Positions 25,282-63,046 of a stretch of DNA of 64,000 nucleotides are shown here, piece after piece. The stretch comes from Myxococcota bacterium (GTDB lineage: Bacteria; Myxococcota_A; UBA9160; SZUA-336), in contig JBIOJK010000007.1 in assembly GCA_044450765.1 (NCBI GenBank), forward strand, positions 2,875 to 66,874, written 5' to 3'. The notes beneath the pieces are model-generated. The model was not told the DNA's origin and made no database searches. It was given only the letters and a program-made list of their open reading frames with translations. Numbering within the stretch: position 1 is the stretch's first letter; each line of letters starts with the position of its first letter. Made by a program: the position numbers and the translations under genes.

Positions 25282-25344
25282 CGTCGCCCGCAGCCTCCCC
25301 GCGCGTCGTACACATGGAGGTGTCGCGCGTGAGGGCTTAAGCTC

Positions 25345-26589
25345 GTGCACGTGGACGAGAGCGCCGCGGTTCTCGAACGAGTGTTTCGCGCCGAGTCGGG
25401 CGTGGTGCTCGGTGCCCTGCTGGCGCAGCTGCACGACTTCGACCTGGCGGAGGACGCGTTTCAGGACGCGGTCGCGTCGGCGCTCGAGCGCTGGCCGATC
25501 GACGGCGTGCCGCGCCGGCCCGGGGCTTGGCTGCTGACGGCGGCGCGGCGGAAGGCGCTCGATCGGCTGCGCCGCCGCGCGACCCGGCTCGACAAGCAGA
25601 GCGCGCTAGAGCTCGAGACCGAGCTGTCGAGCGCGCAGGAGTCAGCGCTGGACGACGAAGAGATACAGGACGAGCGACTGCGCCTGATCTTCACCTGCTG
25701 CCACCCGGCGCTCGGCCAGCATGCGCAGGTCGCGCTCACCCTGCGCACGCTCGGCGGCCTCTCGACGGCGGAGATCGCGCGCGCCTTTCTCGTCGACGAG
25801 AGCGCGATGGCGCGCCGGCTGGTGCGCGCGAAAGCGAAGCTGCGCGGGGAGCGGATCGCCTATCGCGCGCCGCCGCTCGAGCTCGTGCCGGAGCGCCGCG
25901 AAGCGGTGCTCTCGGTGATCTACCTGATCTTCAACGAGGGCTACGCCGCGAGCGCCGGTGACTCGCTCGTGCGGCGGGAGCTCGCGAGCGAGGCGATCCG
26001 CCTCGGGCGGGTGCTGGCCGAGCTCTTGCCGGGAGACACAGAAGTGCGTGGCCTGCTCGCGCTGATGCTTCTGCACGACGCGCGCCGCGACGCGCGCGTC
26101 GACGCGTCTGGCGTCGGCGTTCCGCTCGAAGAGCAGGACCGCGGGCGCTGGGACCATGCGCAGATCCGCGAGGGCAGAGCGCGCGTCGCCGAGCTCGGTC
26201 CGATCGCGGAGTCGGGCCCCTACGCCCTGCAGGCGCGGATCGCCTCGCTGCACGTCGCGGGGGAGCACTTCGGCCAGATCGATTGGCGGGCGATCGCCGC
26301 GCTCTATGACCGCTTGCTCGCGCTCGGCCGCTCGCCGGTGATCGAGCTGAACCGGGCCGTAGCGGTCGCGCTGGCCGACGGCCCCGAGGCAGGCCTACGT
26401 TTGCTCGAAGCCCGCGACCTGGCCCAGTCACTCGCCGACTATCCGCCGTATCTCGGCGCGCGCGCGGATCTGCTCCGCCGCGCGGGGCGAGCCTTCGAGG
26501 CCCGCGCCGCCTATCAGAGCGCACTCACCCTGGCCCGCACCGCTCCCGAGCGCGCTTTTCTCGCGCGGCGCCTGCGGGAGCTCCGGTGA
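25345..26589 (+). CDS. RNA polymerase sigma-70 (ECF-type) factor with long C-terminal extension
   Basis: Sigma-2 and sigma-4 regions in the first ~190 aa, then a ~220-aa helical extension. Such long ECF sigmas commonly pair with YciI/DGPF proteins. Confidence 0.75.
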   Translation: MHVDESAAVLERVFRAESGVVLGALLAQLHDFDLAEDAFQDAVASALERWPIDGVPRRPGAWLLTAARRKALDRLRRRATRLDKQSALELETELSSAQESALDDEEIQDERLRLIFTCCHPALGQHAQVALTLRTLGGLSTAEIARAFLVDESAMARRLVRAKAKLRGERIAYRAPPLELVPERREAVLSVIYLIFNEGYAASAGDSLVRRELASEAIRLGRVLAELLPGDTEVRGLLALMLLHDARRDARVDASGVGVPLEEQDRGRWDHAQIREGRARVAELGPIAESGPYALQARIASLHVAGEHFGQIDWRAIAALYDRLLALGRSPVIELNRAVAVALADGPEAGLRLLEARDLAQSLADYPPYLGARADLLRRAGRAFEARAAYQSALTLARTAPERAFLARRLRELR

Positions 26590-26596
26590 TCGACTC

Positions 26597-27397
26597 ATGA
26601 CCCCCGAGCTCGCCGCGCTGATTGGATTCGTCCTCCTGCCGATCGCGTGCGTCGCGCTCGAGAGGCTCTGGCCGTCGGTGCGGGGCAGGCCGTGGATTCG
26701 CGCGGGCGCTGCCTCGGACGCCGTCTGGTACGTCGTCGAGGCCTACGTCGCGCGCCTGCTCGCGCCGTGGGCGACTTACTTCGCGCTGGTCCCCGTGATG
26801 GCCGCGTACCGGATGACCGCCGGCGAGTTCTACTCCGGCTTCGGCCGGGCCGGCGCGATCCCGTTCTGGTGGCAGGTGCCGATCGTGTTCGTGCTCGCCG
26901 ACTTTCTCTCGTACTGGCAGCACCGGCTCTTCCACACGCGCGCGCTCTGGCCGATCCACGCGGTGCACCACTCGTCGACGGAGGTCGACTGGCTGAGCTC
27001 CGGGCGCTTCCATCCGCTCAACGAGATCGGCGCCCAGCTCGTCTACGTCGCGCCCGTGCTCGCGTGCGGCTTTCACCCGTACACGTTTCTGGTGCTCGCG
27101 CCGTTCACGACCTGGTACGTGGTCCTGCTGCACGCGAACCTCGGCTGGACGCTCGGGCCGCTCCGCGGGCTGATCGCGAGCCCCGTGTTCCACCGCTGGC
27201 ACCACACCCGGGCCGAAGAGGGGCTCGACAAGAACTTCGGCGGAATCCTCGCGCTCTGGGACGTCGCTTTCGGGACATACTTCATGCCGGAAGGGCGTGT
27301 CGCGACGAGCTTCGGCTCGAGTGAGCCGGTTCCGCCGGGATTCACGGCACAGCTGGTCTATCCGTTCAAGGTGCTGACTCGGTCCAAGTGGGTTTAG
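26597..27397 (+). CDS. Sterol desaturase / fatty acid hydroxylase family protein
   Basis: His boxes HRLFH, HAVHH and HRWHH in a 4-TM protein. Confidence 0.7.
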   Translation: MTPELAALIGFVLLPIACVALERLWPSVRGRPWIRAGAASDAVWYVVEAYVARLLAPWATYFALVPVMAAYRMTAGEFYSGFGRAGAIPFWWQVPIVFVLADFLSYWQHRLFHTRALWPIHAVHHSSTEVDWLSSGRFHPLNEIGAQLVYVAPVLACGFHPYTFLVLAPFTTWYVVLLHANLGWTLGPLRGLIASPVFHRWHHTRAEEGLDKNFGGILALWDVAFGTYFMPEGRVATSFGSSEPVPPGFTAQLVYPFKVLTRSKWV

Positions 27398-45407: not shown

Positions 45408-45989
45408 CTAGGCGCGGCGCCTTGCCACCAGCGAGAGCGCCACGAGTCCCACGCCGACGAGTCCGAGCAGCTCTGGCTCGGGAACGGCCTGCAGGAAGCC
45501 GCGGATCTCGCCGCCGGGTGAGGTCGAGGTGTGGATGTTGAAGTAGGTGGCGCCCCCAGCGAGCCCGTTCAGCAGCGCGTTCAGCGCGCCGCTGACGTCG
45601 GTGTTCGCGGTGACGAAGGCCGGGTTGTAGCTCGAGGCTTGTGACAGATCGAAGGTCTGGTCGTAGCTGCCGGAAGTCACGCCGGTCGGGAAGCCCGGAA
45701 AGCTCGGCACCGCCGTCGCGACGCCCACGTTGAGCGGACCGGAGGGAACCAGACAGCAGTGGATGTGCGCCGCCGTCGAGGTTCCCTGCAGACCCGAGAA
45801 GTCGGCCTGAACCTCCATCGACAGCACGTCGAGATCGATCGTGACCTTCACGGTTCCGATTCCGGGCGATGCGTTGGCCGGTGACTCGTTCCCCCCGGAG
45901 AGCGTCGCCTCGTACACGACTTCGTGTGCGGCGGCGGGCAGCGCCGCGGCCGCGATCAGACACAGTGCGGAGATCCAACTCAGCTTCAC
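45408..45989 (-). CDS. CHRD domain-containing protein with PEP-CTERM sorting signal
   Basis: Signal peptide. Probable CHRD-domain region. C-terminal VPEPELLGLVGVGLVALSLVARRRA is a canonical PEP-CTERM tail. Confidence 0.7.
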   Translation of the reverse strand: MKLSWISALCLIAAAALPAAAHEVVYEATLSGGNESPANASPGIGTVKVTIDLDVLSMEVQADFSGLQGTSTAAHIHCCLVPSGPLNVGVATAVPSFPGFPTGVTSGSYDQTFDLSQASSYNPAFVTANTDVSGALNALLNGLAGGATYFNIHTSTSPGGEIRGFLQAVPEPELLGLVGVGLVALSLVARRRA

Positions 45990-47780: not shown

Positions 47781-48445
47781 GACCGCGCGCGCAGCAAAGC
47801 CACCGCGATCGCGACGAGCCATACGAGGTGGGTAATCGGCGCAAGACTCGGCAGTAACCCACCGGGCGACCACAGGCCCTCGGGAGCGAGTGACATCGAC
47901 GAGGCCAAGTGAGTTGCGGCGACCGCGATTGCGCCGTACGCGACCCAGGCCGGGAGCACGCGCGTCTCGAGGATCACCTTTGCGGCGGCCGCCGGGTACA
48001 CGGCGTTCGGAAATGCGGTCGAGAGATTGGCGACCAGGGCGATGTCGTACAGAGCGCGCAGCGTCGCCGGGTCGAGATTCGGCGCCATGTGGGCGATCGC
48101 CGCGAGGAACGTCGTGCAGGCGAGAATGGTGACCGCGGTGGCAACGCACGCCGCGAATGCGATCGCCGACCACAGACCGGCACCGCCCTCGGCGCGGCGC
48201 AGCACCGCCCACAGACCGCCGCCGAAGACGATCAGCAGGCCGCCCCAGCCGATCTCGCTGAGCTCGATCGCGAAGAGAGTCGAATAGCGCGCCTCCGCCG
48301 GCGATGCGGCGAGCTGCGCGTCACTGCCGATGAGCGGGTGGATGATTCCAATCCACAGGTAGGGAGCGAACAGCAGTGCCACCCCGAGCGCCGCGTACGC
48401 GGCGACGCGGGCCCCCTGTGAATCGATCGGTGTGGTGCCAGTCAC
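47777..48445 (-). CDS. Hypothetical polytopic membrane protein
   Basis: About 6 TM. The GTG at 48445 overlaps the upstream TGA. The N-terminal 300 aa of the long ORF is rejected as GC artefact. Confidence 0.45.
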   Translation of the reverse strand: MTGTTPIDSQGARVAAYAALGVALLFAPYLWIGIIHPLIGSDAQLAASPAEARYSTLFAIELSEIGWGGLLIVFGGGLWAVLRRAEGGAGLWSAIAFAACVATAVTILACTTFLAAIAHMAPNLDPATLRALYDIALVANLSTAFPNAVYPAAAAKVILETRVLPAWVAYGAIAVAATHLASSMSLAPEGLWSPGGLLPSLAPITHLVWLVAIAVALLRARS

Positions 48446-49800
48446 TCTGCCGGCGGTATCTCGCGCGGCGCGAGCTCGGTGAGCGCGCCGCCGCCGACGG
48501 CGGACTCCTCGGCGATCTTCTCGAGCAGCGCGTCGCCGCCGGCGTCCTTGAAGAGCTGCTTCATCACCGCGGGCACGTTGTAGCCCTCGGGCATCGTGGG
48601 CGCCTTGCGCTGCTTGCGCGCGAGCGCGGCGTCGACCGCGGGCGCGAGGCGCGCGGCCTTGTGATCGCGCTGCTTCTGGTCGCGATCTTTGAACTCGGGG
48701 AGTATCTCGCGACCGAACAGCTCGATCGCCTCCATGATGTGCTCGTGCCGGTTCTTGCCGGCCTGCAACACGAAGATGAGCTGGTCGACGCCGGCGGCTT
48801 CGAAACGGCGCAGGTAGCCGCGCAGCTGCTCCGGCGTGCCGACCGCGCCGCGCAGCGCCGAGGACTGACCCTGCGCGACCTTCGCGCCGAGCTCCTGGCG
48901 CTCGGCGATCGCGAGCTCGGAGTTGTAGCCGCGTTCGTGGCGCTTGCTCTGGAAGTCTTTCCACAGATCGGTCGTGCCGGGGACGTGGTTGCCGAAGGCG
49001 GCGTAGAAGGCGAGCGAGTAGCCGAAGAAGTTCCCGCCCTCGAGGCCGCGGCGGATCGCCTCCCGCTCGTCGCGGTGCACCATCATGGGAGTCACGCACG
49101 CGACGTCGGTGTTGACGAGCTCGCCGATCGGCGTGCACTTCGCGAGCCGCTTCTCGTGCGCCTCGGTCCAGCCGCGCGCTTCCTCCGGATCGATGAACGC
49201 GAAGGTGAGTGACCCGAGCCCGAGCTCGGCGGCCATCATGATCGTGTCCCGCCGCGAGCATGCGACCCAGAGCGGCGGGTGGGGGCGCTGGAAGGGCTTC
49301 GGCACCACGTTGCGCGGCGGCATCTTCACCCACTTGCCGTCGACGCCGCCGAAGGGCGTCTCGGTGAGACAGCGCACCGCGACCTCGAGCCCCTCGCGCC
49401 ACTGCTCGCGCTTCAGGAACGGGTCGACGTTGAAGCCGCCCATCTCGCCGGTCGTCGCCGACTCACCGGAGCCGAACTCGACGCGTCCGCCCGAGATCAA
49501 GTCGAGCGTCGCGACGCGCTCCGCCGTGCGCGCGGGGTGGTTGTAGAGCGGGGAGGTCTGGATGATCCCGTGGCCGAGCCGGATGTTCTTGGTGCGCTGA
49601 CTCGCCGCGGCGAGAAACACCTCGGGGGCGCTCGAGTGCGAGTACTCCTCGAGGAAGTGGTGCTCGACCTCCCACACGTACTCGATGCCGAGCTTGTCCG
49701 CGAGCTCGACCTGCTCGAGCGCGTTCTGCATCAGGCGATACTCGTCGTCCTCTGCCCAAGGACGCGGGAGCTGGTGCTCGTAGAAGACCCCGAAGCGCAT
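48442..49800 (-). CDS. LLM-class flavin-dependent oxidoreductase (luciferase-like monooxygenase)
   Basis: Luciferase-like TIM barrel. Start at MRFGVFYEHQ. Confidence 0.75.
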   Translation of the reverse strand: MRFGVFYEHQLPRPWAEDDEYRLMQNALEQVELADKLGIEYVWEVEHHFLEEYSHSSAPEVFLAAASQRTKNIRLGHGIIQTSPLYNHPARTAERVATLDLISGGRVEFGSGESATTGEMGGFNVDPFLKREQWREGLEVAVRCLTETPFGGVDGKWVKMPPRNVVPKPFQRPHPPLWVACSRRDTIMMAAELGLGSLTFAFIDPEEARGWTEAHEKRLAKCTPIGELVNTDVACVTPMMVHRDEREAIRRGLEGGNFFGYSLAFYAAFGNHVPGTTDLWKDFQSKRHERGYNSELAIAERQELGAKVAQGQSSALRGAVGTPEQLRGYLRRFEAAGVDQLIFVLQAGKNRHEHIMEAIELFGREILPEFKDRDQKQRDHKAARLAPAVDAALARKQRKAPTMPEGYNVPAVMKQLFKDAGGDALLEKIAEESAVGGGALTELAPREIPPAE

Positions 49801-49914
49801 CGCGGCTCTCCCTGCTTGAACTCGTGCGCCGATGATACCCAAACGCGCCGCGCGATTTTCGAGACGGTTCGACGTCCCTCTCCGCGCGCGCCCGCGGCCA
49901 ACCGATGGAATGGC

Positions 49915-50607
49915 ATGCACACGGGGTCGCTGCCCAAGCACGACGTGATGGGCCCGGTCACGCGCGCGGTCGAGGCCGGCTCGATCGCCGCCGCCGCCGC
50001 GCTCGTGCTCGTGGACGGCGCGCGGCTTGCGAGCTGGGGCGATGTCGGCGGCGCATGGCTGCCGCTGGTCGCGATCGCCGGCGCGCTGGGAGCGGACTTC
50101 GCCTCGGGACTGGTGCACTGGGCCGCAGACACCTGGGGCAGTGAGTCCCTGCCGGTGCTCGGCCGGCGCCTGCTGCGGCCGTTCCGCGTCCACCACGTGA
50201 ATCCGGACGACTTTCTCGAGCGCGACTTCATCGACTGCAACGGCGACGTCGCGCTGCTCGCGAGCCCGCTGCTCGTCGCGGCGTGGCTGATTCCGCTGGA
50301 GAATGAGTGGGCGCGAATCGCGTCGGCGTTCTTGGTCGTGTTCGCGGCAGTGTCGCTGCCCACGAACCAGGTGCACCAGTGGGCGCACATGCCGCGGCCA
50401 CCGCGCGCGGTCGCCTGGCTGCAGCGCCGCGGCTGGATCCTGTCCCGCGCCGAGCACGGGCGACACCACCGGGCGCCGCACACATCGCGCTACTGCATCG
50501 CCACGGGCTGGTGCAATGCGGCCCTGGACGCAATCGGATTCTTCCCCGCGCTCGAGCGCGCGATCTCGGCGGTCACGGGCCTGCGGCCGCGCGGTGACTC
50601 GCCGTGA
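49915..50607 (+). CDS. carF: CarF / PEDS1 (TMEM189) family plasmanylethanolamine desaturase homolog
   Basis: Blocks ADFASGLVHWAADTWGS, RPFRVHH, NQVHQWAH and GRHHRAPHxxxYCIxTGW closely match the TMEM189 histidine motifs as I recall them. The start is uncertain, with internal ATG candidates. Confidence 0.8.
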   Translation: MHTGSLPKHDVMGPVTRAVEAGSIAAAAALVLVDGARLASWGDVGGAWLPLVAIAGALGADFASGLVHWAADTWGSESLPVLGRRLLRPFRVHHVNPDDFLERDFIDCNGDVALLASPLLVAAWLIPLENEWARIASAFLVVFAAVSLPTNQVHQWAHMPRPPRAVAWLQRRGWILSRAEHGRHHRAPHTSRYCIATGWCNAALDAIGFFPALERAISAVTGLRPRGDSP

Positions 50608-51722
50608 GCGAAGTGACTGCCAGCCAGGACCACCGCTTCGGCTCCGGCTGGATCAGCGGCGTGCTCGCGACCGCGCTGGGAGCGATCGGCCTGGGAGCCG
50701 TCCTCTGCTTCCACTTCCCCGACCTGCTCACGATGCCGCGACTGCGCGGGCTGTATCCCGTGCCGCTGGTCCGCGCGCTGCTCCACCTGGTGCTGGTGAG
50801 CGGATTTCTGCTCGGCGTGCTGTCCGCGAGTCTGCGGCGGAGCAAGCGACTCGGCGTCTGCGCCATTGCGCTCGTGCTGGTCGCTGCGCTCCTGGGCGGC
50901 TCGCGCGTTCCGCTCGATGGCGAGCTCCACGACGGACCGTTCCTCGGGCTCGACTGGTTCCTGCTGAACCTGATCGGCTACTCGCTCGCGTTCATCCCGG
51001 TCGAGCGCGCCTTCGCGCGCTTGCCCGAGCAGGGCGTGTTCCGGCGCGGCTGGCGTACCGACCTTTCGTACTTCTTCGTGAGCACGCTGTTCGTCCAAGT
51101 CACGACTTTGCTCACCCTGCGCCCGGCGATGGTGCTGTTCTCGTGGGCGGCGAACGCAAAGCTGCAGGCCTTCGTCGGCGCGCAGCCGTTCGCGGCCCAG
51201 TGTCTCGGCATCCTGTTCGTCACCGACCTGACCCAGTACTGGGTGCACCGCGCGTTCCACCGCGTGCCCTGGCTCTGGCGCTTCCACCGCATTCACCACT
51301 CGGCGGAAGTGATGGACTGGCTCGCGGGCTCGCGGCTGCATCTCGTCGACGTGGCAGTGACTCGCGGGCTCAGCTACGTGCCGATCTACGTGCTCGGCTT
51401 CGGGGAGGCTCCGCTCTTCGCGTACGTCGCGTTCGTCTCGATCCAGGCGACGTTCATCCACGCCAACGTGCGCTTCGAGCTGGCGCTGCTGCGCGAGCTG
51501 CTCGCGACGCCGCAGTTCCACCACTGGCACCACGGCGCCGAGGCCGAAGCAGTCGACGTCAACTTCGCGGTGCATCTCCCCTTCATCGACCGACTGTTTG
51601 GCACCTTCCACCTGCCGAAGGGGCGTTGGCCGCGCGCCTACGGCCTGGCGAGCGGCGAGCACGTGCCGGGGGGCTACGTGCGCCAGCTCGTCGAGCCGCT
51701 GCGGCCCGCGAGGGAAACATGA
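50604..51722 (+). CDS. Sterol desaturase / fatty acid hydroxylase superfamily protein (AGMO-like topology)
   Basis: The GTG overlaps the carF-like stop. Multi-TM N-terminus. His boxes HRAFH, HRIHH and HHWHH. Confidence 0.7.
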   Translation: MSEVTASQDHRFGSGWISGVLATALGAIGLGAVLCFHFPDLLTMPRLRGLYPVPLVRALLHLVLVSGFLLGVLSASLRRSKRLGVCAIALVLVAALLGGSRVPLDGELHDGPFLGLDWFLLNLIGYSLAFIPVERAFARLPEQGVFRRGWRTDLSYFFVSTLFVQVTTLLTLRPAMVLFSWAANAKLQAFVGAQPFAAQCLGILFVTDLTQYWVHRAFHRVPWLWRFHRIHHSAEVMDWLAGSRLHLVDVAVTRGLSYVPIYVLGFGEAPLFAYVAFVSIQATFIHANVRFELALLRELLATPQFHHWHHGAEAEAVDVNFAVHLPFIDRLFGTFHLPKGRWPRAYGLASGEHVPGGYVRQLVEPLRPARET

Positions 51723-52288
51723 AATCCGCACTCCGCGCGCTCACTGGAATGCTCGTCGCCGTCGCGATCGCGGGCGGCGCGCTCGCCGTCCTGGTCGCGA
51801 CGAACCTGCGAACCTACGCGCGGCTCACCTACGAGCAGCCAGTCGCCGAGATCTCGTTCCACGAGCGCGGCCCCCAGCGCTATCTCGCGACCGTGACCCG
51901 CTCCGACGATCACCAGGTCCAGACCTTCGAGCTCGCCGGCGACGAGTGGCAGGTCGACGCCCGCGTGCTGAAGTGGCACGGGCTCGCGAACCTGCTCGGG
52001 CTCGACACGCGCTACCGCCTGGAGCGCGTGAGTGGCCGATACCGCGACATCGAGCAGGAGCGCAGTGCGCCGCGCAGTGTCTTCGCGCTAGGGGAGCGGC
52101 CGGCGATCGACTTGTGGTCGTTCGCGCAGACACACCCCCACTGGATTCCGTTCGTCGACGGCTTCTACGGCAGCGCCACCTATCTACCCATGGCAGAAGG
52201 CGCCCGCTACCAGGTCAGCTTGAGTCAGTCCGGCCTGCTCGCGCGGCCGATCGACGAAGCGCGCGCCCAGCCTGCCGGCTGGCAGTAG
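51719..52288 (+). CDS. Membrane-anchored hypothetical protein
   Basis: ATG overlapping the upstream stop. N-terminal TM anchor. 189 aa. Confidence 0.45.
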   Translation: MKSALRALTGMLVAVAIAGGALAVLVATNLRTYARLTYEQPVAEISFHERGPQRYLATVTRSDDHQVQTFELAGDEWQVDARVLKWHGLANLLGLDTRYRLERVSGRYRDIEQERSAPRSVFALGERPAIDLWSFAQTHPHWIPFVDGFYGSATYLPMAEGARYQVSLSQSGLLARPIDEARAQPAGWQ

Positions 52289-61398: not shown

Positions 61399-62424
61399 TC
61401 AGTGACTCTGCCGCGCGACCACCAGCGCGTCCGCGAAGCCGGGCGCGCTCAGTCCGGCGAGGAACCCGGCGAGGAACATCTTGCCGAAGGCGTAGAGCAC
61501 TTCCGGCGTTCCGACCTTCAGACGGCCCGCCTGGAGCGCGGCCACGAACTCGGCTGGGGTCAGCGCTTCGAGAGTCGAATCGGGCTCTCGGTTCGGATCT
61601 GCGGCGAACAGACGGAAGAGCACGCAGGCGAAGTACATGCGGGTGAGCTGCTGCATCAAGAAGAGCCGCGCATGCGTCGCGCGGTCGGGCTCGCGACCGA
61701 GCCAGCTGCGCAGAATGGCGTCCTGGAGCTCCGGAGTTCCCGCGAGCTCGTGTGTGACGACCGCGACGTCGGTGAGTGCGTCGTTGCTGCAAGACGTCTC
61801 CCAGTCGACGAGCCAGAGGCGCGTGCCGTCGAAGAGGATGTTGCGGGGATTCGGGTCATTGTGACTCGACACCAGCGCAGTGCCGTTCCACGGATACGCC
61901 TCGCGAATGCGCTCGAGCCCCGCGCGGTGCGGATCGAGCAGACCCGGCGCGAAAACACGCGAGCCAATCACGGACGACAGCATGCGGTCGAGAAGCTCCA
62001 GATAGCTGATCGGATGCGACGGGAAGCTGGTCTCGTCCTGCAGCCGGCGAATGAGCGCGCCCAGATCGCGCGCGAGCGCCGGCGGACCTCCCGGATACTC
62101 CTGCAGCGGCCGCTGAGTCACGAAGTCCATCAGCGCCACACCCTGCTGCGGGTCCGCGAAACGAAGCGGCGGCGCGATGCCCGCGTCCGCTGCAGCCTTC
62201 ATGCAGGGATAGTGATGCGGATTCTGGAGCGCGTTCAGGCCGGTCTCCAGGCGCAGAAGGTACGAGCGCGACCCTGCATCGACGCGATACGTCAGTGCGC
62301 CAGATGCGCCGCCGGCGGCCGGCCGGAGCGCAGTGACTTGCGCACCGCCCAGCGCGGCGCGGACCGCTGCCTTCGCGGCGTCACGCTGCCGTTCGGGAAC
62401 CCGGTCGAGGGGGTCTGGGCTCAC
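61399..62424 (-). CDS. Phosphotransferase (APH/choline-kinase-like) family protein
   Basis: HNDPNPRNILF catalytic loop and LVDWE. Confidence 0.7.
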   Translation of the reverse strand: MSPDPLDRVPERQRDAAKAAVRAALGGAQVTALRPAAGGASGALTYRVDAGSRSYLLRLETGLNALQNPHHYPCMKAAADAGIAPPLRFADPQQGVALMDFVTQRPLQEYPGGPPALARDLGALIRRLQDETSFPSHPISYLELLDRMLSSVIGSRVFAPGLLDPHRAGLERIREAYPWNGTALVSSHNDPNPRNILFDGTRLWLVDWETSCSNDALTDVAVVTHELAGTPELQDAILRSWLGREPDRATHARLFLMQQLTRMYFACVLFRLFAADPNREPDSTLEALTPAEFVAALQAGRLKVGTPEVLYAFGKMFLAGFLAGLSAPGFADALVVARQSH

Positions 62425-62485
62425 GGTGCGCCGGAGAAGCTACTCCAAGGCGCGCGAGTCGCGTAGGATCCTCGATCCGCGCGGG

Positions 62486-63046
62486 ATGGGCGCCTCCGGC
62501 GCGAGGCTGGCGAACTGCGCTCGTGTTTCGGATCGTTGGCGCGTGCCCGCCGGGCTTCGCCACGCGCTCGCGATCGCCATCCTTCCGGTGACGGTGACGA
62601 TCGTCGTCCCGATCTGGATCGGGCGGCGCTTCGGGACGTCGGTCTCGTTCCCGGACGCGTTCTTCGAGTCACTCTCGCTGGCGATCGGGCTCGTCTGTCT
62701 CGGGCTCGGAGCGGCTCTCTTCGCTGCTTGCTTGCGCCGCTTCGTCGGCGAGGGCGAGGGGACGCTCGCGCCGTGGGATCCGCCGCGCGCGCTCGTGCTG
62801 AATGGGCCGTACCGCTACGTGCGCAATCCGATGATCTCGGGGGTGATCGCGGTGCTGCTCGGCGAGGCGCTGTGTCTGCGCTCGCTGCCGCACTTCGCCT
62901 GGGCGCTCGTCTTCACCGCCATGAACCTGGTCTACATCCCGCTCATCGAGGAGCCGGGCCTCGAGCGGCGCTTCGGCGAGGCGTACCGCCGCTACTGCGA
63001 GAACGTGCCGCGCATCGTCCCGCGCGCGACGCCGTGGCAGGGCTAG
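62486..63046 (+). CDS. Isoprenylcysteine carboxyl methyltransferase (ICMT)/phospholipid methyltransferase family membrane protein
   Basis: 4-5 TM. C-terminal GPYRYVRNPMI...EE..LERRFGE.Y..Y signature. Confidence 0.7.
   Translation: MGASGARLANCARVSDRWRVPAGLRHALAIAILPVTVTIVVPIWIGRRFGTSVSFPDAFFESLSLAIGLVCLGLGAALFAACLRRFVGEGEGTLAPWDPPRALVLNGPYRYVRNPMISGVIAVLLGEALCLRSLPHFAWALVFTAMNLVYIPLIEEPGLERRFGEAYRRYCENVPRIVPRATPWQG

What the first reader, a model, noticed from the sequence alone, without database searches (positions are those of the whole stretch)
49915..52288. CarF/PEDS1 plasmalogen-desaturase homolog translationally coupled to a fatty-acid-hydroxylase-family enzyme and a membrane-anchored protein
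The 49915..50607 product carries the histidine-motif blocks of TMEM189/PEDS1/CarF, the vinyl-ether-forming plasmanylethanolamine desaturase known from Myxococcus and animals. Its stop overlaps (GTGA) the start of a 372-aa sterol-desaturase/FA-hydroxylase superfamily protein with three His boxes. That is the same superfamily as the ether-lipid-cleaving alkylglycerol monooxygenase. This gene in turn overlaps (ATGA) a small membrane-anchored protein. An operon coupling a plasmalogen-forming desaturase to a second di-iron membrane lipid oxygenase is not a described arrangement, as far as I know. It could represent a plasmalogen synthesis/turnover or lipid-signalling module.
Basis: partly seen in the sequence, partly recalled or inferred. 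Interest (0 to 1): 0.65.

Follow-up and report, generated by a model that had tools for sequence, protein, structure and literature searches.

The report
Conserved bacterial lipid desaturase–hydroxylase gene pair
Three overlapping genes are really there, but the first is a relative of the plasmalogen desaturase rather than a clear equivalent. Its pairing with one particular membrane hydroxylase recurs in at least eight bacterial phyla, which points to an uncharacterised and apparently undescribed lipid-modifying enzyme pair.

Summary
Three same-strand ORFs, 49915-50607 (g1), 50604-51722 (g2) and 51719-52288 (g3), overlap by GTGA and ATGA.

- **g1:** a strong PF10520 lipid desaturase, 40% identical to human PEDS1. 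Its clade has an invariant Arg where CarF/PEDS1 has its diagnostic ninth His. It also differs at about seven further subfamily-specific positions.
- **g2:** a FA_hydroxylase-superfamily enzyme. It is nearest to OlsE and AGMO, not to sterol, carotenoid or fatty-acid 2-hydroxylases. It carries a subfamily-specific N-terminal transmembrane extension.
- **The pair:** in 80 species-representative genomes from at least eight phyla, a full-length g2 homolog lies next to the g1 homolog in 67 (67 of 74 decidable), in three different arrangements. One His-type bacterial subclade is also paired. The subclade most similar to human PEDS1 is not.
- **g3:** a Myxococcota-lineage add-on. Its homologs elsewhere sit in unrelated contexts.

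No ether-lipid genes were found nearby.

Best reading: a conserved, co-inherited two-enzyme membrane-lipid tailoring module with an unknown substrate, probably a glycerophospholipid. It is probably not canonical plasmalogen synthesis, though ether-lipid chemistry is not excluded. I found no published description of the pair.

The parts
49915..50607 (+). g1: 230-aa PF10520 di-iron membrane lipid desaturase. It belongs to the Arg-type bacterial subfamily of the CarF/PEDS1/FAD4 family.
   Evidence: Pfam E 5.9e-56. 40% identity to human PEDS1. Identical to NCBI MAG protein MFI5314596.1. Eight conserved His (H68, H93, H94, H154, H158, H181, H184, H185), D72 and F90 are present.
50221..50223 (+). 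Codon for Arg103 of g1, at the position of the PEDS1-diagnostic histidine (CarF H113 / human H130 / mouse H131).
   Evidence: BLASTP alignment to verified human PEDS1. Arg is invariant in alignment A1, in 82/82 scorable top database hits and in 80/80 genome loci.
50604..51722 (+). g2: 372-aa FA_hydroxylase-superfamily di-iron membrane oxygenase of the OlsE/AGMO-like branch. Its start overlaps the g1 stop (GTGA).
   Evidence: Pfam PF04116 E 2.7e-29. NCBIfam OlsE 104 bits against a cutoff of 475. Family profile vs AGMO 60 bits, all other references 19 bits or less. Full-length homologs lie adjacent to g1 homologs in 67/80 genomes.
50604..50978 (+). N-terminal extension of g2, about 120 aa, with three predicted TM helices and a conserved loop (GGSRVPxDGELxxGPFLGLDW). 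It is the signature of the desaturase-linked hydroxylase subfamily.
   Evidence: Invariant columns in A3. All adjacent g2 homologs align from about residues 1-18. The window paralog at 26363-27394 lacks it. 730 representative proteins match it; where judgeable the match is at the protein's N-terminus.
51246..51533 (+). Catalytic core of g2 carrying the His boxes HRAFH (215-219), HRIHH (228-232), H286 and HHWHH (306-310).
   Evidence: Translation. Alignment to human AGMO H132, H136, H145, H148, H149, H201, H221, H224 and H225 (residue list from PMC7911779).
51719..52288 (+). g3: 189-aa protein with one N-terminal TM helix or signal anchor and a beta-rich, probably periplasmic domain. Its start overlaps the g2 stop (ATGA). 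It is a lineage-specific passenger of the operon.
   Evidence: No Pfam or NCBIfam hit. AlphaFold2 pLDDT 84. No PDB fold match. 1667 homologs. Adjacent to g1 only in Myxococcota-like loci. Unrelated context in Steroidobacteraceae.

Best explanation
g1 and g2 form a conserved, co-inherited pair of O2-dependent di-iron integral membrane enzymes that tailor a membrane lipid.

- g1 is a PF10520 desaturase of a bacterial subfamily that is separate from CarF/PEDS1 proper.
- g2 is an OlsE/AGMO-like hydroxylase with its own N-terminal three-helix extension.

By family precedent both act near the head-group end of a hydrocarbon chain: PEDS1 at C1'-C2' of an alkyl chain, FAD4 at C3-C4 of an acyl chain, AGMO at C1'. 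I infer that they work on the same lipid, one introducing a double bond and the other a hydroxyl. That lipid is most probably a glycerophospholipid. I do not think the pair carries out canonical plasmalogen synthesis.

In this Myxococcota lineage the pair is co-transcribed and probably translationally coupled with g3. g3 is an exported, membrane-anchored protein of unknown role that is not part of the conserved module.

Shown: family memberships, subfamily signatures, overlaps, cross-phylum adjacency. Inferred: a shared substrate, the substrate class, the chemistry, the direction of any pathway, and the electron donor (none is encoded in the module).
For: Family and subfamily:
- Pfam and NCBIfam hits.
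- g1 Arg103 replaces the PEDS1-specific His in 80/80 relatives.
- There are further fixed differences between Arg-type and His-type sequences: V92/E, N96/D, L101/T, D107/E, V112/N, A113/C, Q155/K. Human PEDS1 has the His-type residue each time.
- The Arg-type sequences form one NJ clade of 77.

Coupling:
- g2 is adjacent in 67/74 decidable genomes of Myxococcota, Acidobacteriota, Planctomycetota, Gemmatimonadota, Verrucomicrobiota, Hydrogenedentota, Bacteroidota and Betaproteobacteria.
- Three arrangements occur: g1>g2 (55 loci), g2>g1 (7, Gemmatimonadota), divergent (5, Verrucomicrobiota). Gaps are typically under 160 nt.
- Starting from g2 homologs, 2 of 3 long contigs have the desaturase immediately upstream with overlapping stop and start.
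- Identities of g1 and g2 to the window copies co-vary (r = 0.69, n = 60).

Substrate hints:
- In a Gemmataceae genome the Arg-type gene ends a same-strand run of CdsA, PlsC, hydrolase/methyltransferase and PAP2/phosphatase genes.
- A DAGK_cat/YegS_C lipid kinase flanks the pair in 11 Planctomycetota loci.
- A PF00487 fatty-acid desaturase follows the pair in L168.

Against canonical plasmalogen synthesis:
- No AGPS, FAR or ElbD-type genes appear in the scanned window ORFs.
- A published survey found only 73 bacterial genomes with the full aerobic plasmalogen gene set, 61 of them Myxococcota. PEDS1 homologs occur more widely, including a collapsed all-bacterial clade of 229 sequences (PMC13012113).
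- A Bradyrhizobium homolog lacking the His did not complement carF (PMC9131029).
Against: - No substrate or product is known for any member of either subfamily, so the chemistry is inferred only from distant relatives.
- The diagnostic His is second-sphere. The mouse H131A mutant keeps about 7% activity (PMC8960569), so Arg does not prove loss of vinyl-ether formation.
- g1 is still 40% identical to human PEDS1.
- A His-type bacterial subclade is also paired with a g2-like hydroxylase (6/6 decidable), so the pairing is not tied to the Arg state.
- AGMO is the nearest eukaryotic relative of g2, and it acts on ether lipids.
- The closest relatives of this genome (L001, L004, L005, L024) lack g2 next to g1. 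g1 can therefore exist without an adjacent partner.
- The lipid-gene neighbourhood hints come from a minority of loci.
- Only 64 kb of this genome was visible.
Confidence: 0.6

Rival explanations
1. One reading: an ether-lipid module. g1 forms the vinyl-ether bond of plasmalogens from alkyl-ether phospholipids, as PEDS1/CarF does. g2 is a bacterial alkylglycerol-monooxygenase-like enzyme that hydroxylates C1' of alkyl ethers and so cleaves or remodels them. Together they would set plasmalogen and alkyl-ether levels.
For: - g1 keeps all eight core His plus the Asp and Phe shown to be essential in PEDS1 (D72, F90; PMC9131029). It is 40% identical to human PEDS1.
- AGMO is by far the best-scoring eukaryotic reference for the g2 family: 60 bits against 19 or less.
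- g2 keeps all nine AGMO His and D233, N235 and D244, with Y236 replaced by F (PMC7911779).
- The host is a Myxococcota bacterium, the phylum where aerobic plasmalogen synthesis is concentrated.
- A His-type subclade also carries the g2 partner.
- H131A mouse PEDS1 retains about 7% activity.
Against: - Arg replaces the PEDS1-specific His throughout the clade, and seven more positions differ from the PEDS1 signature.
- A bacterial homolog lacking the His failed to complement carF.
- The subclade most similar to human PEDS1 is never paired with g2 (0/8 decidable).
- Most carriers belong to phyla not known, to my knowledge, for aerobic plasmalogens. Published data say most bacteria with PEDS1 homologs lack AGPS, FAR and GNPAT.
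- AGMO residues Q162 and W243 are not conserved in g2.
- g2 scores higher on the OlsE model than AGMO does (104 vs 57 bits).
- No ether-lipid genes were found in the window.
Confidence: 0.2
2. An aminolipid module. g2 hydroxylates ornithine or another acyloxyacyl amino lipid, as OlsE does, and g1 desaturates one of the acyl chains of the same lipid.
For: - OlsE is the only NCBIfam model hit by g2 (104 bits).
- To my knowledge, ornithine lipids and their hydroxylated forms are widespread in Planctomycetota, Proteobacteria and Bacteroidota. A recent review covers their modifications (PMC12971839; listed, not read in depth).
Against: - The score is far below the OlsE equivalog cutoff (475).
- An unrelated paralog in the same window scores the same (107 bits), so the OlsE hit is generic for this branch.
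- No ols genes were seen next to the pair in any locus.
- No PF10520 enzyme is known to act on aminolipids.
Confidence: 0.08
3. A FAD4-like reading. g1 introduces a trans-delta-3 double bond into the sn-2 acyl chain of phosphatidylglycerol, as plant FAD4 does, and g2 hydroxylates the same or a neighbouring carbon. This is a specific version of the best explanation.
For: - Arg occupies the diagnostic position, as is usual in plant homologs (PMC9131029).
- The glycerophospholipid gene context in the Gemmataceae locus.
Against: - A verified FAD4 sequence could not be obtained, so similarity to FAD4 was not tested.
- By eye, g1 keeps PEDS1-like motifs after the HH box (NGD). My unverified recollection is that FAD4 lacks them.
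- To my knowledge, trans-delta-3 fatty acids are not reported from these phyla.
Confidence: 0.1
4. The adjacency has no functional meaning. It would be inherited synteny or co-transfer of two unrelated membrane enzymes.
For: Seven decidable loci lack g2, including the four closest relatives of this window's g1. One g2 homolog has no desaturase nearby.
Against: - Adjacency survives across at least eight phyla.
- It survives three gene orders in the Arg-type clade, and a convergent order in His-type loci.
- No other neighbour is conserved.
- That pattern is the classical signature of selection for linkage.
Confidence: 0.02

Closest known systems
CarF / PEDS1 (TMEM189), plasmanylethanolamine delta-1'-desaturase of Myxococcus xanthus and animals
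   Same: Same Pfam family (PF10520). 40% identity to human PEDS1. Eight core His, the essential Asp (D72) and Phe (F90), a similar length and a similar four-helix layout.
   Different: - The ninth, PEDS1-specific His is Arg103.
- Seven further conserved positions carry a different residue from the His-type consensus shared by human PEDS1.
- g1 has a clade-specific N-terminal LPxHD motif.
- Its NCBIfam CarF score is lower than that of the human enzyme.
- It is habitually paired with a hydroxylase, whereas the subclade most like human PEDS1 is not.
FAD4, plant chloroplast phosphatidylglycerol trans-delta-3 desaturase
   Same: Same Pfam family. It lacks the ninth His, with Arg usual at that position according to PMC9131029.
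   Different: Not compared directly, because no verified FAD4 sequence was available. There is no plastid context and no peroxiredoxin partner gene. g1 is bacterial and paired with a hydroxylase.
AGMO (TMEM195), alkylglycerol monooxygenase
   Same: Same superfamily (PF04116). It is the best eukaryotic match of the g2 profile: 60 bits, 31% identity over the catalytic core. All nine His and D233, N235 and D244 are conserved.
   Different: - AGMO has a long C-terminal multi-helix extension, whereas g2 has an N-terminal one.
- Q162 and W243 are not conserved.
- From my recollection of Watschinger 2012 (not re-read here), the residue after the second His (AGMO E137) affects tetrahydrobiopterin affinity. 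It is Arg in g2.
- Cofactor use is unknown.
OlsE, ornithine lipid hydroxylase of Agrobacterium/Rhizobium
   Same: It is the only NCBIfam model matched. Bacterial, same superfamily branch, and the match covers the whole catalytic domain.
   Different: - 104 bits against an equivalog cutoff of 475.
- OlsE (293-position model) lacks the N-terminal extension.
- A non-paired paralog in the same window scores equally.
- There is no ols gene context.
Eukaryotic sphingolipid delta-4 desaturase / C4-hydroxylase pair (DEGS1 with DEGS2/SUR2)
   Same: A conceptual parallel from general knowledge: a desaturase and a hydroxylase of di-iron membrane families attack the same carbon near the head group of one lipid.
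   Different: Different desaturase family. No sequence test was done. No sphingolipid genes were seen, except that a DAGK_cat-type lipid kinase flanks the pair in some Planctomycetota.

Membership tests
PF10520 Lipid_desat (CarF/PEDS1/FAD4 superfamily) | Significant match to the Pfam model over its full length | tested here: met
   E 5.9e-56, 189.7 bits against a cutoff of 26.4, profile positions 3-174 of 175.
PF10520 Lipid_desat (CarF/PEDS1/FAD4 superfamily) | Eight histidines conserved in all homologs and essential for activity | tested here: met
   H68, H93, H94, H154, H158, H181, H184 and H185 align with human H95, H120, H121, H186, H190, H214, H217 and H218. They are invariant in 77 Arg-type and 55 His-type sequences.
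CarF/PEDS1 (plasmanylethanolamine desaturase) | Ninth histidine (CarF H113 / human H130 / mouse H131), conserved in all PEDS1 and not in FAD4; required in CarF and human PEDS1 assays | tested here: not met
   Arg103 in g1. Arg in 80/80 genome relatives and 82/82 scorable database hits. The criterion comes from PMC9131029 and PMC8960569.
CarF/PEDS1 (plasmanylethanolamine desaturase) | Essential Asp (human D99) and Phe (human F117) | tested here: met
   D72 and F90, invariant in A1.
CarF/PEDS1 (plasmanylethanolamine desaturase) | NCBIfam equivalog NF045946 above its cutoff | tested here: inconclusive
   g1 scores 179 bits against a cutoff of 500. Verified human PEDS1 also fails at 234 bits, so the cutoff only defines myxobacterial CarF. 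g1 scores lower than the human enzyme even though its host is a Myxococcota bacterium.
CarF/PEDS1 (plasmanylethanolamine desaturase) | Subfamily signature residues shared by human PEDS1 and His-type bacterial homologs (human D123, T128, E134, N139, C140, K187) | tested here: not met
   g1 and 70-76 of the 77 Arg-type sequences have N96, L101, D107, V112, A113 and Q155 instead. The His-type set was selected by a motif that fixes only E119, H130, D131 and F132, not these positions.
CarF/PEDS1 (plasmanylethanolamine desaturase) | Vinyl-ether formation on plasmanyl-PE, or complementation of M. xanthus carF deletion | not testable with these tools
   This needs an experiment. The only published test of a bacterial homolog lacking the His (Bradyrhizobium) was negative (PMC9131029).
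CarF/PEDS1 (plasmanylethanolamine desaturase) | Genome encodes an alkyl-ether precursor pathway (AGPS, FAR, GNPAT or ElbD) | tested here: inconclusive
   None was found among the Pfam-scanned ORFs of the 64-kb window. The rest of the genome is not available.
FAD4 (plant PG trans-delta-3 desaturase) | Closer sequence relationship to FAD4 than to PEDS1 | not tested
   My recalled Arabidopsis FAD4 sequence was not confirmed by exact look-up, so it was not used.
PF04116 FA_hydroxylase superfamily | Pfam match and the His-box pattern HX3-4H, HX2HH, HX2HH | tested here: met
   E 2.7e-29, 102.7 bits against a cutoff of 31. HRAFH, HRIHH and HHWHH are invariant in A3.
AGMO (alkylglycerol monooxygenase) | Nine conserved His (human 132, 136, 145, 148, 149, 201, 221, 224, 225) | tested here: met
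   All nine align with conserved His of the g2 profile. The residue list comes from PMC7911779.
AGMO (alkylglycerol monooxygenase) | Six further essential residues (Q162, D233, N235, Y236, W243, D244) | tested here: not met
   D318, N320 and D329 match. Y236 is Phe321. Q162 is Leu245 and W243 is Leu328 (alignment).
AGMO (alkylglycerol monooxygenase) | Ether-bond cleavage of alkylglycerols with tetrahydrobiopterin | not testable with these tools
   This needs an enzyme assay.
OlsE (ornithine lipid hydroxylase) | NCBIfam equivalog NF052566 above its cutoff | tested here: not met
   104 bits against a cutoff of 475. The unpaired window paralog scores 107 and human AGMO 57.
Sterol C-5 desaturase / methylsterol oxidase / cholesterol 25-hydroxylase / CrtZ / FA2H | Best similarity to one of these characterised subfamilies | tested here: not met
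   g2-family profile scores: SC5D 19, MSMO1 14, CH25H 12, CrtZ -2, FA2H -4 bits, against AGMO 60. The reference sequences were verified exact.

The most novel reading that the evidence does not exclude
The Arg-type desaturase and its dedicated hydroxylase would be a bacterial ether-lipid system. It would pair a vinyl-ether-forming (or related C1'/C2'-acting) desaturase with the first bacterial alkylglycerol-monooxygenase-type enzyme. That would make plasmalogen-like lipid synthesis and turnover widespread in Acidobacteriota, Planctomycetota, Gemmatimonadota and Verrucomicrobiota, and it would push the PEDS1-AGMO functional pairing back to bacteria.
Probability: 0.15. Interest if true: 0.8.

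Novelty: new variant of a known kind. Interest (0 to 1): 0.55.

Why it matters
PF10520 has only two characterised activities, PEDS1 and FAD4. This work separates out a large bacterial clade with an unknown activity. That clade is almost always encoded next to one specific, equally uncharacterised OlsE/AGMO-like hydroxylase.

A gene pair kept together across at least eight phyla in several orientations is a strong, directly testable lead to an unknown membrane-lipid modification. The carriers are abundant soil and aquatic bacteria.

There is also a practical point. Database names such as 'plasmanylethanolamine desaturase' or 'fatty acid desaturase CarF family', which are given to these proteins, probably over-annotate plasmalogen capacity in metagenomes. 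The Arg/His position plus a handful of signature residues gives a simple filter.

If the ether-lipid reading turned out to be right, it would change the picture of where aerobic plasmalogen metabolism exists and how the PEDS1 and AGMO pairing arose.

Tried and rejected
- **Exact look-up of g1 and g2 in the contig index:** nothing found. The organism was identified instead from a 100% protein hit, an NCBI MAG of Myxococcota.
- **Profile search of g2 against PDB sequences:** nothing meaningful.
- **Conserved neighbours beyond g1 and g2:** all-vs-all clustering of ORFs within 6 kb in 80 loci found no other broadly shared family. The only specific one is a DAGK_cat/YegS_C kinase in 11 Planctomycetota loci. 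The others (Ser/Thr kinases, sulfatases, ABC ATPases, DUF1559-type proteins) are families I judged common in those phyla, by eye and without Pfam scans.
- **Rosetta-stone fusions:** P0423 looks like a g1-g2 fusion but has garbled junction sequence, so it is most likely a frameshifted contig. It was rejected as evidence.
- **Plasmid collection:** no g1 homolog.
- **Ether-lipid genes near His-type loci, paired or unpaired:** none seen.
- **Literature:** searches for PF10520, CarF/PEDS1 with these phyla, AGMO bacterial homologs, and PEDS1 with sterol desaturase gene clusters found no description of the pair. The 2026 PNAS phylogenomic study never mentions a hydroxylase.
- **Arabidopsis FAD4 from memory:** not confirmed, so not used.
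- **Promoter and terminator scan of the operon:** nothing above shuffled expectation.
- **NCBIfam CarF cutoff as proof of non-membership:** I considered it and then downgraded it, because human PEDS1 also fails the cutoff.


Full report
**Observation**

The junctions read GTGA and ATGA, so each stop overlaps the next start. A GAGGGA motif precedes the g3 ATG.

g1 and g3 are identical to proteins annotated in an NCBI Myxococcota MAG on a 67,418-bp contig (P0001 = MFI5314596.1; P0121). The best database match for g2 is only 88% identical.

Pfam gives PF10520 Lipid_desat for g1 (E 5.9e-56), PF04116 FA_hydroxylase for g2 (E 2.7e-29), and nothing for g3.

**What g1 is**

I wrote the human PEDS1 sequence from memory, and an exact-sequence look-up confirmed it as A5PLL7. 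g1 aligns with it at 40% identity (E 5e-49) without gaps through the catalytic region.

- The eight His conserved in all family members are present. So are the Asp and Phe shown to be essential in PEDS1 (g1 D72 and F90).
- The ninth His is Arg103 in g1. [quoted passage not shown]
- Arg is invariant in a 43-sequence alignment, in all 82 scorable top database hits and in 80/80 species-representative genomes.

To see whether this is one substitution or a subfamily boundary, I scanned metagenomes for the His-type motif PFREHH-x8-HDF and compared 55 full-length bacterial His-type sequences with 77 Arg-type ones. Several positions that the search pattern did not fix also differ consistently. In g1/human numbering they are N96/D123, L101/T128, D107/E134, V112/N139, A113/C140 and Q155/K187. 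Human PEDS1 has the His-type residue at every one of them.

Most Arg-type sequences have an N-terminal His9 within an LPxHD motif (64/77), which His-type sequences lack. On the NCBIfam CarF equivalog model g1 scores 179 bits and human PEDS1 234, against a cutoff of 500. A protein from a myxobacterium is therefore less CarF-like than the human enzyme is.

In a neighbour-joining tree the 77 Arg-type sequences form one clade. No bootstrap was done, and the position of the human sequence near the midpoint root is unresolved.

g1 is therefore a family member but not a demonstrated PEDS1. The published negative complementation by the Bradyrhizobium homolog that lacks this His points the same way. 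The 7% residual activity of mouse H131A means that vinyl-ether chemistry cannot be excluded.

**What g2 is**

The only NCBIfam match is the ornithine-lipid hydroxylase OlsE, at 104 bits against a cutoff of 475.

Six reference enzymes were recalled and then verified exact: AGMO, SC5D, CH25H, FA2H, MSMO1 and CrtZ. Against them the g2-family profile scores AGMO 60 bits, SC5D 19, MSMO1 14, CH25H 12, CrtZ -2 and FA2H -4. g2 therefore belongs to the OlsE/AGMO-like branch, not to the sterol, carotenoid or 2-hydroxylase branches.

All nine AGMO His align. Of the six further essential AGMO residues listed in PMC7911779, three are identical, one is a Tyr-to-Phe change and two are not conserved.

g2 has an N-terminal extension of about 120 aa with three helices and a very conserved loop. 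The extension is missing from a second FA_hydroxylase gene in the same window (26363-27394; 32% identical over the C-terminal 250 aa). In a library of 1.84 billion representatives the extension matches 730 proteins, at their N-termini wherever that can be judged. The AlphaFold2 model of g2 was of modest confidence and gave no PDB matches.

**What g3 is**

g3 has one N-terminal helix followed by a confidently modelled beta-rich domain (pLDDT 84). It has no solved structural relative by Foldseek and no Pfam family. By the positive-inside rule the domain should face the periplasm; this is an inference.

Its family is large, with 1667 hits. In Steroidobacteraceae the homolog carries a second N-terminal helix and lies after an ABC-F ATPase, among glyA, nrdR, ribD and purL, with no desaturase or hydroxylase nearby. 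Among desaturase loci it is adjacent only in Myxococcota-like genomes. It is a lineage-specific passenger, not a defining part of the module.

**The main finding: the g1-g2 pair is conserved**

A scan of one genome per species (GTDB) with a g1 alignment returned 141 relatives, and the best 80 were kept. All are MAGs. They come from Myxococcota, Acidobacteriota, Planctomycetota, Gemmatimonadota, Verrucomicrobiota, Hydrogenedentota, Bacteroidota, Beta- and Gammaproteobacteria.

tblastn finds a full-length g2 homolog (49-81% identity, including the N-terminal extension) directly beside the desaturase in 67 of the 80 loci. Six loci have contigs too short to decide and seven lack it.

| Arrangement | Loci | Where |
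|---|---|---|
| g1 then g2, same strand | 55 | Most phyla |
| g2 then g1, same strand | 7 | Gemmatimonadota |
| Divergent | 5 | Verrucomicrobiota |

Approximate gaps have a median of 84 nt, 45 nt and 234 nt for the three arrangements in that order.

- Clustering all ORFs within 6 kb found no other widely conserved neighbour.
- From the g2 side, two of three long contigs have the desaturase immediately upstream with overlapping stop and start, between bipA and mreB. One has no desaturase.
- Identities of the two genes to the window copies co-vary (Pearson r = 0.69, n = 60).

As a control I examined His-type bacterial loci. 21 have a g2-like gene adjacent (43-60% identity, also full length, in same-strand and convergent orders), 22 do not, and 55 cannot be decided. 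On the tree these fall into subclades. A group of 13 has 6/6 decidable loci paired. The group of 28 with the highest similarity to human PEDS1 has 0/8 paired, and a group of 9 has 0/4.

The dedicated hydroxylase therefore accompanies most bacterial PF10520 desaturases, but not the subclade that looks like CarF/PEDS1 proper.

The four closest relatives of this window's g1 (L001, L004, L005, L024; 66-73% identity) have g1 followed directly by g3, with no g2. The partner can evidently be lost or relocated.

**Context**

Pfam scans of the likely genes of the window show transporters, regulators, luciferase-like monooxygenases, TauD/PhyH dioxygenases, a GNAT, an HTH-cupin regulator and a PEMT-like protein. 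They show no AGPS, FAR, ElbD-type or plsA-type genes. These scans are incomplete; for example, 34-38.7 kb was not covered.

Hints to the substrate class come from other loci:
- In a Gemmataceae genome the Arg-type gene ends a run of CdsA, PlsC, hydrolase/methyltransferase and PAP2/phosphatase genes.
- A DAGK_cat/YegS_C lipid kinase flanks the pair in 11 Planctomycetota loci.
- A PF00487 desaturase follows the pair in L168.
- A [2Fe-2S] ferredoxin gene lies about 1.3 kb away in two related contigs.

None of these is general.

**Interpretation**

I conclude that g1 and g2 are a functionally linked pair of di-iron membrane oxygenases that tailor one membrane lipid, probably a glycerophospholipid, near the head-group end of a chain. 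Confidence is about 0.6. The linkage is shown; the substrate and chemistry are inferred.

AGMO is the nearest eukaryotic relative of g2, g1 retains the catalytic residues of PEDS1, and a His-type clade is also paired. Against it stand the signature differences, the negative published test of a homolog lacking the His, and the absence of pairing in the PEDS1-like subclade. A published survey also found the full aerobic plasmalogen gene set in only 73 bacterial genomes, while PEDS1 homologs are more widespread.

Aminolipid and FAD4-like readings are possible but weakly supported. Chance adjacency is effectively excluded.

**Novelty and limits**

Searches of the open-access library found no description of this pairing. 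The most complete phylogenomic study of PEDS1 collapses an all-bacterial clade of 229 sequences and does not mention a hydroxylase. Subscription-only papers were not searchable.

Both enzyme families are known. What is new is the subfamily split and the conserved partnership, so I rate it a new variant of a known kind.

Limits:
- Taxon labels are those of MAG records.
- The His-type sample was motif-selected.
- The tree has no support values.
- FAD4 could not be included.
- Only 64 kb of the genome was visible.
- Nothing here measures a lipid.

Noticed in passing
window 26363-27394 (+), preceded by 25333-26586 (+): A second FA_hydroxylase-superfamily gene (PF04116 E 4.6e-29; OlsE model 107 bits). 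It is 32% identical to g2 over the C-terminal 250 aa but lacks the N-terminal extension. It lies just downstream of, and overlaps, an ECF-type sigma factor gene with DUF6596. No desaturase is next to it.
   Followed up: partly
window 50604-51722: g1 and g3 have 100%-identical entries from the NCBI MAG in the protein collection, but g2 does not (best hit 88%). The ORF is intact and aligns full length with homologs. It may be unannotated or annotated differently in the MAG record.
   Followed up: no
L001 6001-7289; L004 8001-9265; L005 2401-3635; L024 1488-2755: In the closest relatives of this locus the desaturase gene is followed directly by the g3 homolog, with no hydroxylase between them. 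g2 has therefore been lost from, or inserted into, this position within one Myxococcota lineage.
   Followed up: partly
window 48442-49809 (-): The divergently transcribed luciferase-like monooxygenase is 93-96% identical at protein level in relatives where g1 is only 66-73% identical (L001, L002, L004, L005, L024). That is unusually strong conservation for a neighbour of unknown function.
   Followed up: no
L009, L027, L028, L035, L042, L046, L050, L057, L062, L064, L072 (about 1.7-2.4 kb from the g1 start): A DAGK_cat + YegS_C lipid kinase gene sits beside the desaturase-hydroxylase pair in 11 Planctomycetota loci, on either strand. This is a possible clue to a diacylglycerol- or ceramide-like substrate.
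   Followed up: partly
L003 1163-6741 (same contig as L011): In a Gemmataceae MAG the Arg-type desaturase has no adjacent hydroxylase. It ends a same-strand run of CdsA (CTP_transf_1), PlsC-type acyltransferase, hydrolase/methyltransferase fusion and PAP2/dual-specificity phosphatase genes.
   Followed up: no
L084/L085 6001-6651; L086 6001-6660: Steroidobacteraceae/Povalibacter homologs of g3 are 216-219 aa with an extra N-terminal transmembrane helix. They lie right after an ABC-F type ATPase in a housekeeping neighbourhood (glyA, nrdR, ribD, purL).
   Followed up: partly
L037 and L039 (from about 17 nt after the g1 start, 616-aa open frame); L063 8635-9858: In Verrucomicrobiota the desaturase reading frame runs without a stop into an alpha/beta-hydrolase (Abhydrolase_3/BD-FAE) gene. 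In L063 the hydrolase has its own signal-peptide-like start. It is either a true fusion in some genomes or just two genes in the same frame.
   Followed up: no
P0423 (368 aa, metagenome protein): An apparent desaturase-hydroxylase fusion protein. The junction sequence is garbled, so it is probably a frameshift artefact rather than a natural fusion.
   Followed up: partly
L089 9485-9835 (-); L090 9460-9810 (-): A 116-aa [2Fe-2S] ferredoxin (Fer2) gene lies about 1.3 kb downstream of the pair, which here sits between bipA and mreB. It is a candidate electron donor, seen only in these two related contigs.
   Followed up: no
window 45408-45989 (-) and 62216-63043 (+): A CHRD-domain protein with a PEP-CTERM sorting signal, and a PEMT-like (phospholipid methyltransferase family) protein. 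Both are in the same window and neither was linked to the finding.
   Followed up: no
one search hit list: Source annotations for Arg-type homologs include 'plasmanylethanolamine desaturase', 'fatty acid desaturase CarF family protein', 'TMEM189-like' and 'ubiquitin-conjugating enzyme E2 variant'. g2 homologs are auto-named 'lathosterol oxidase'. These names look like over-transfer from eukaryotic orthology groups.
   Followed up: no
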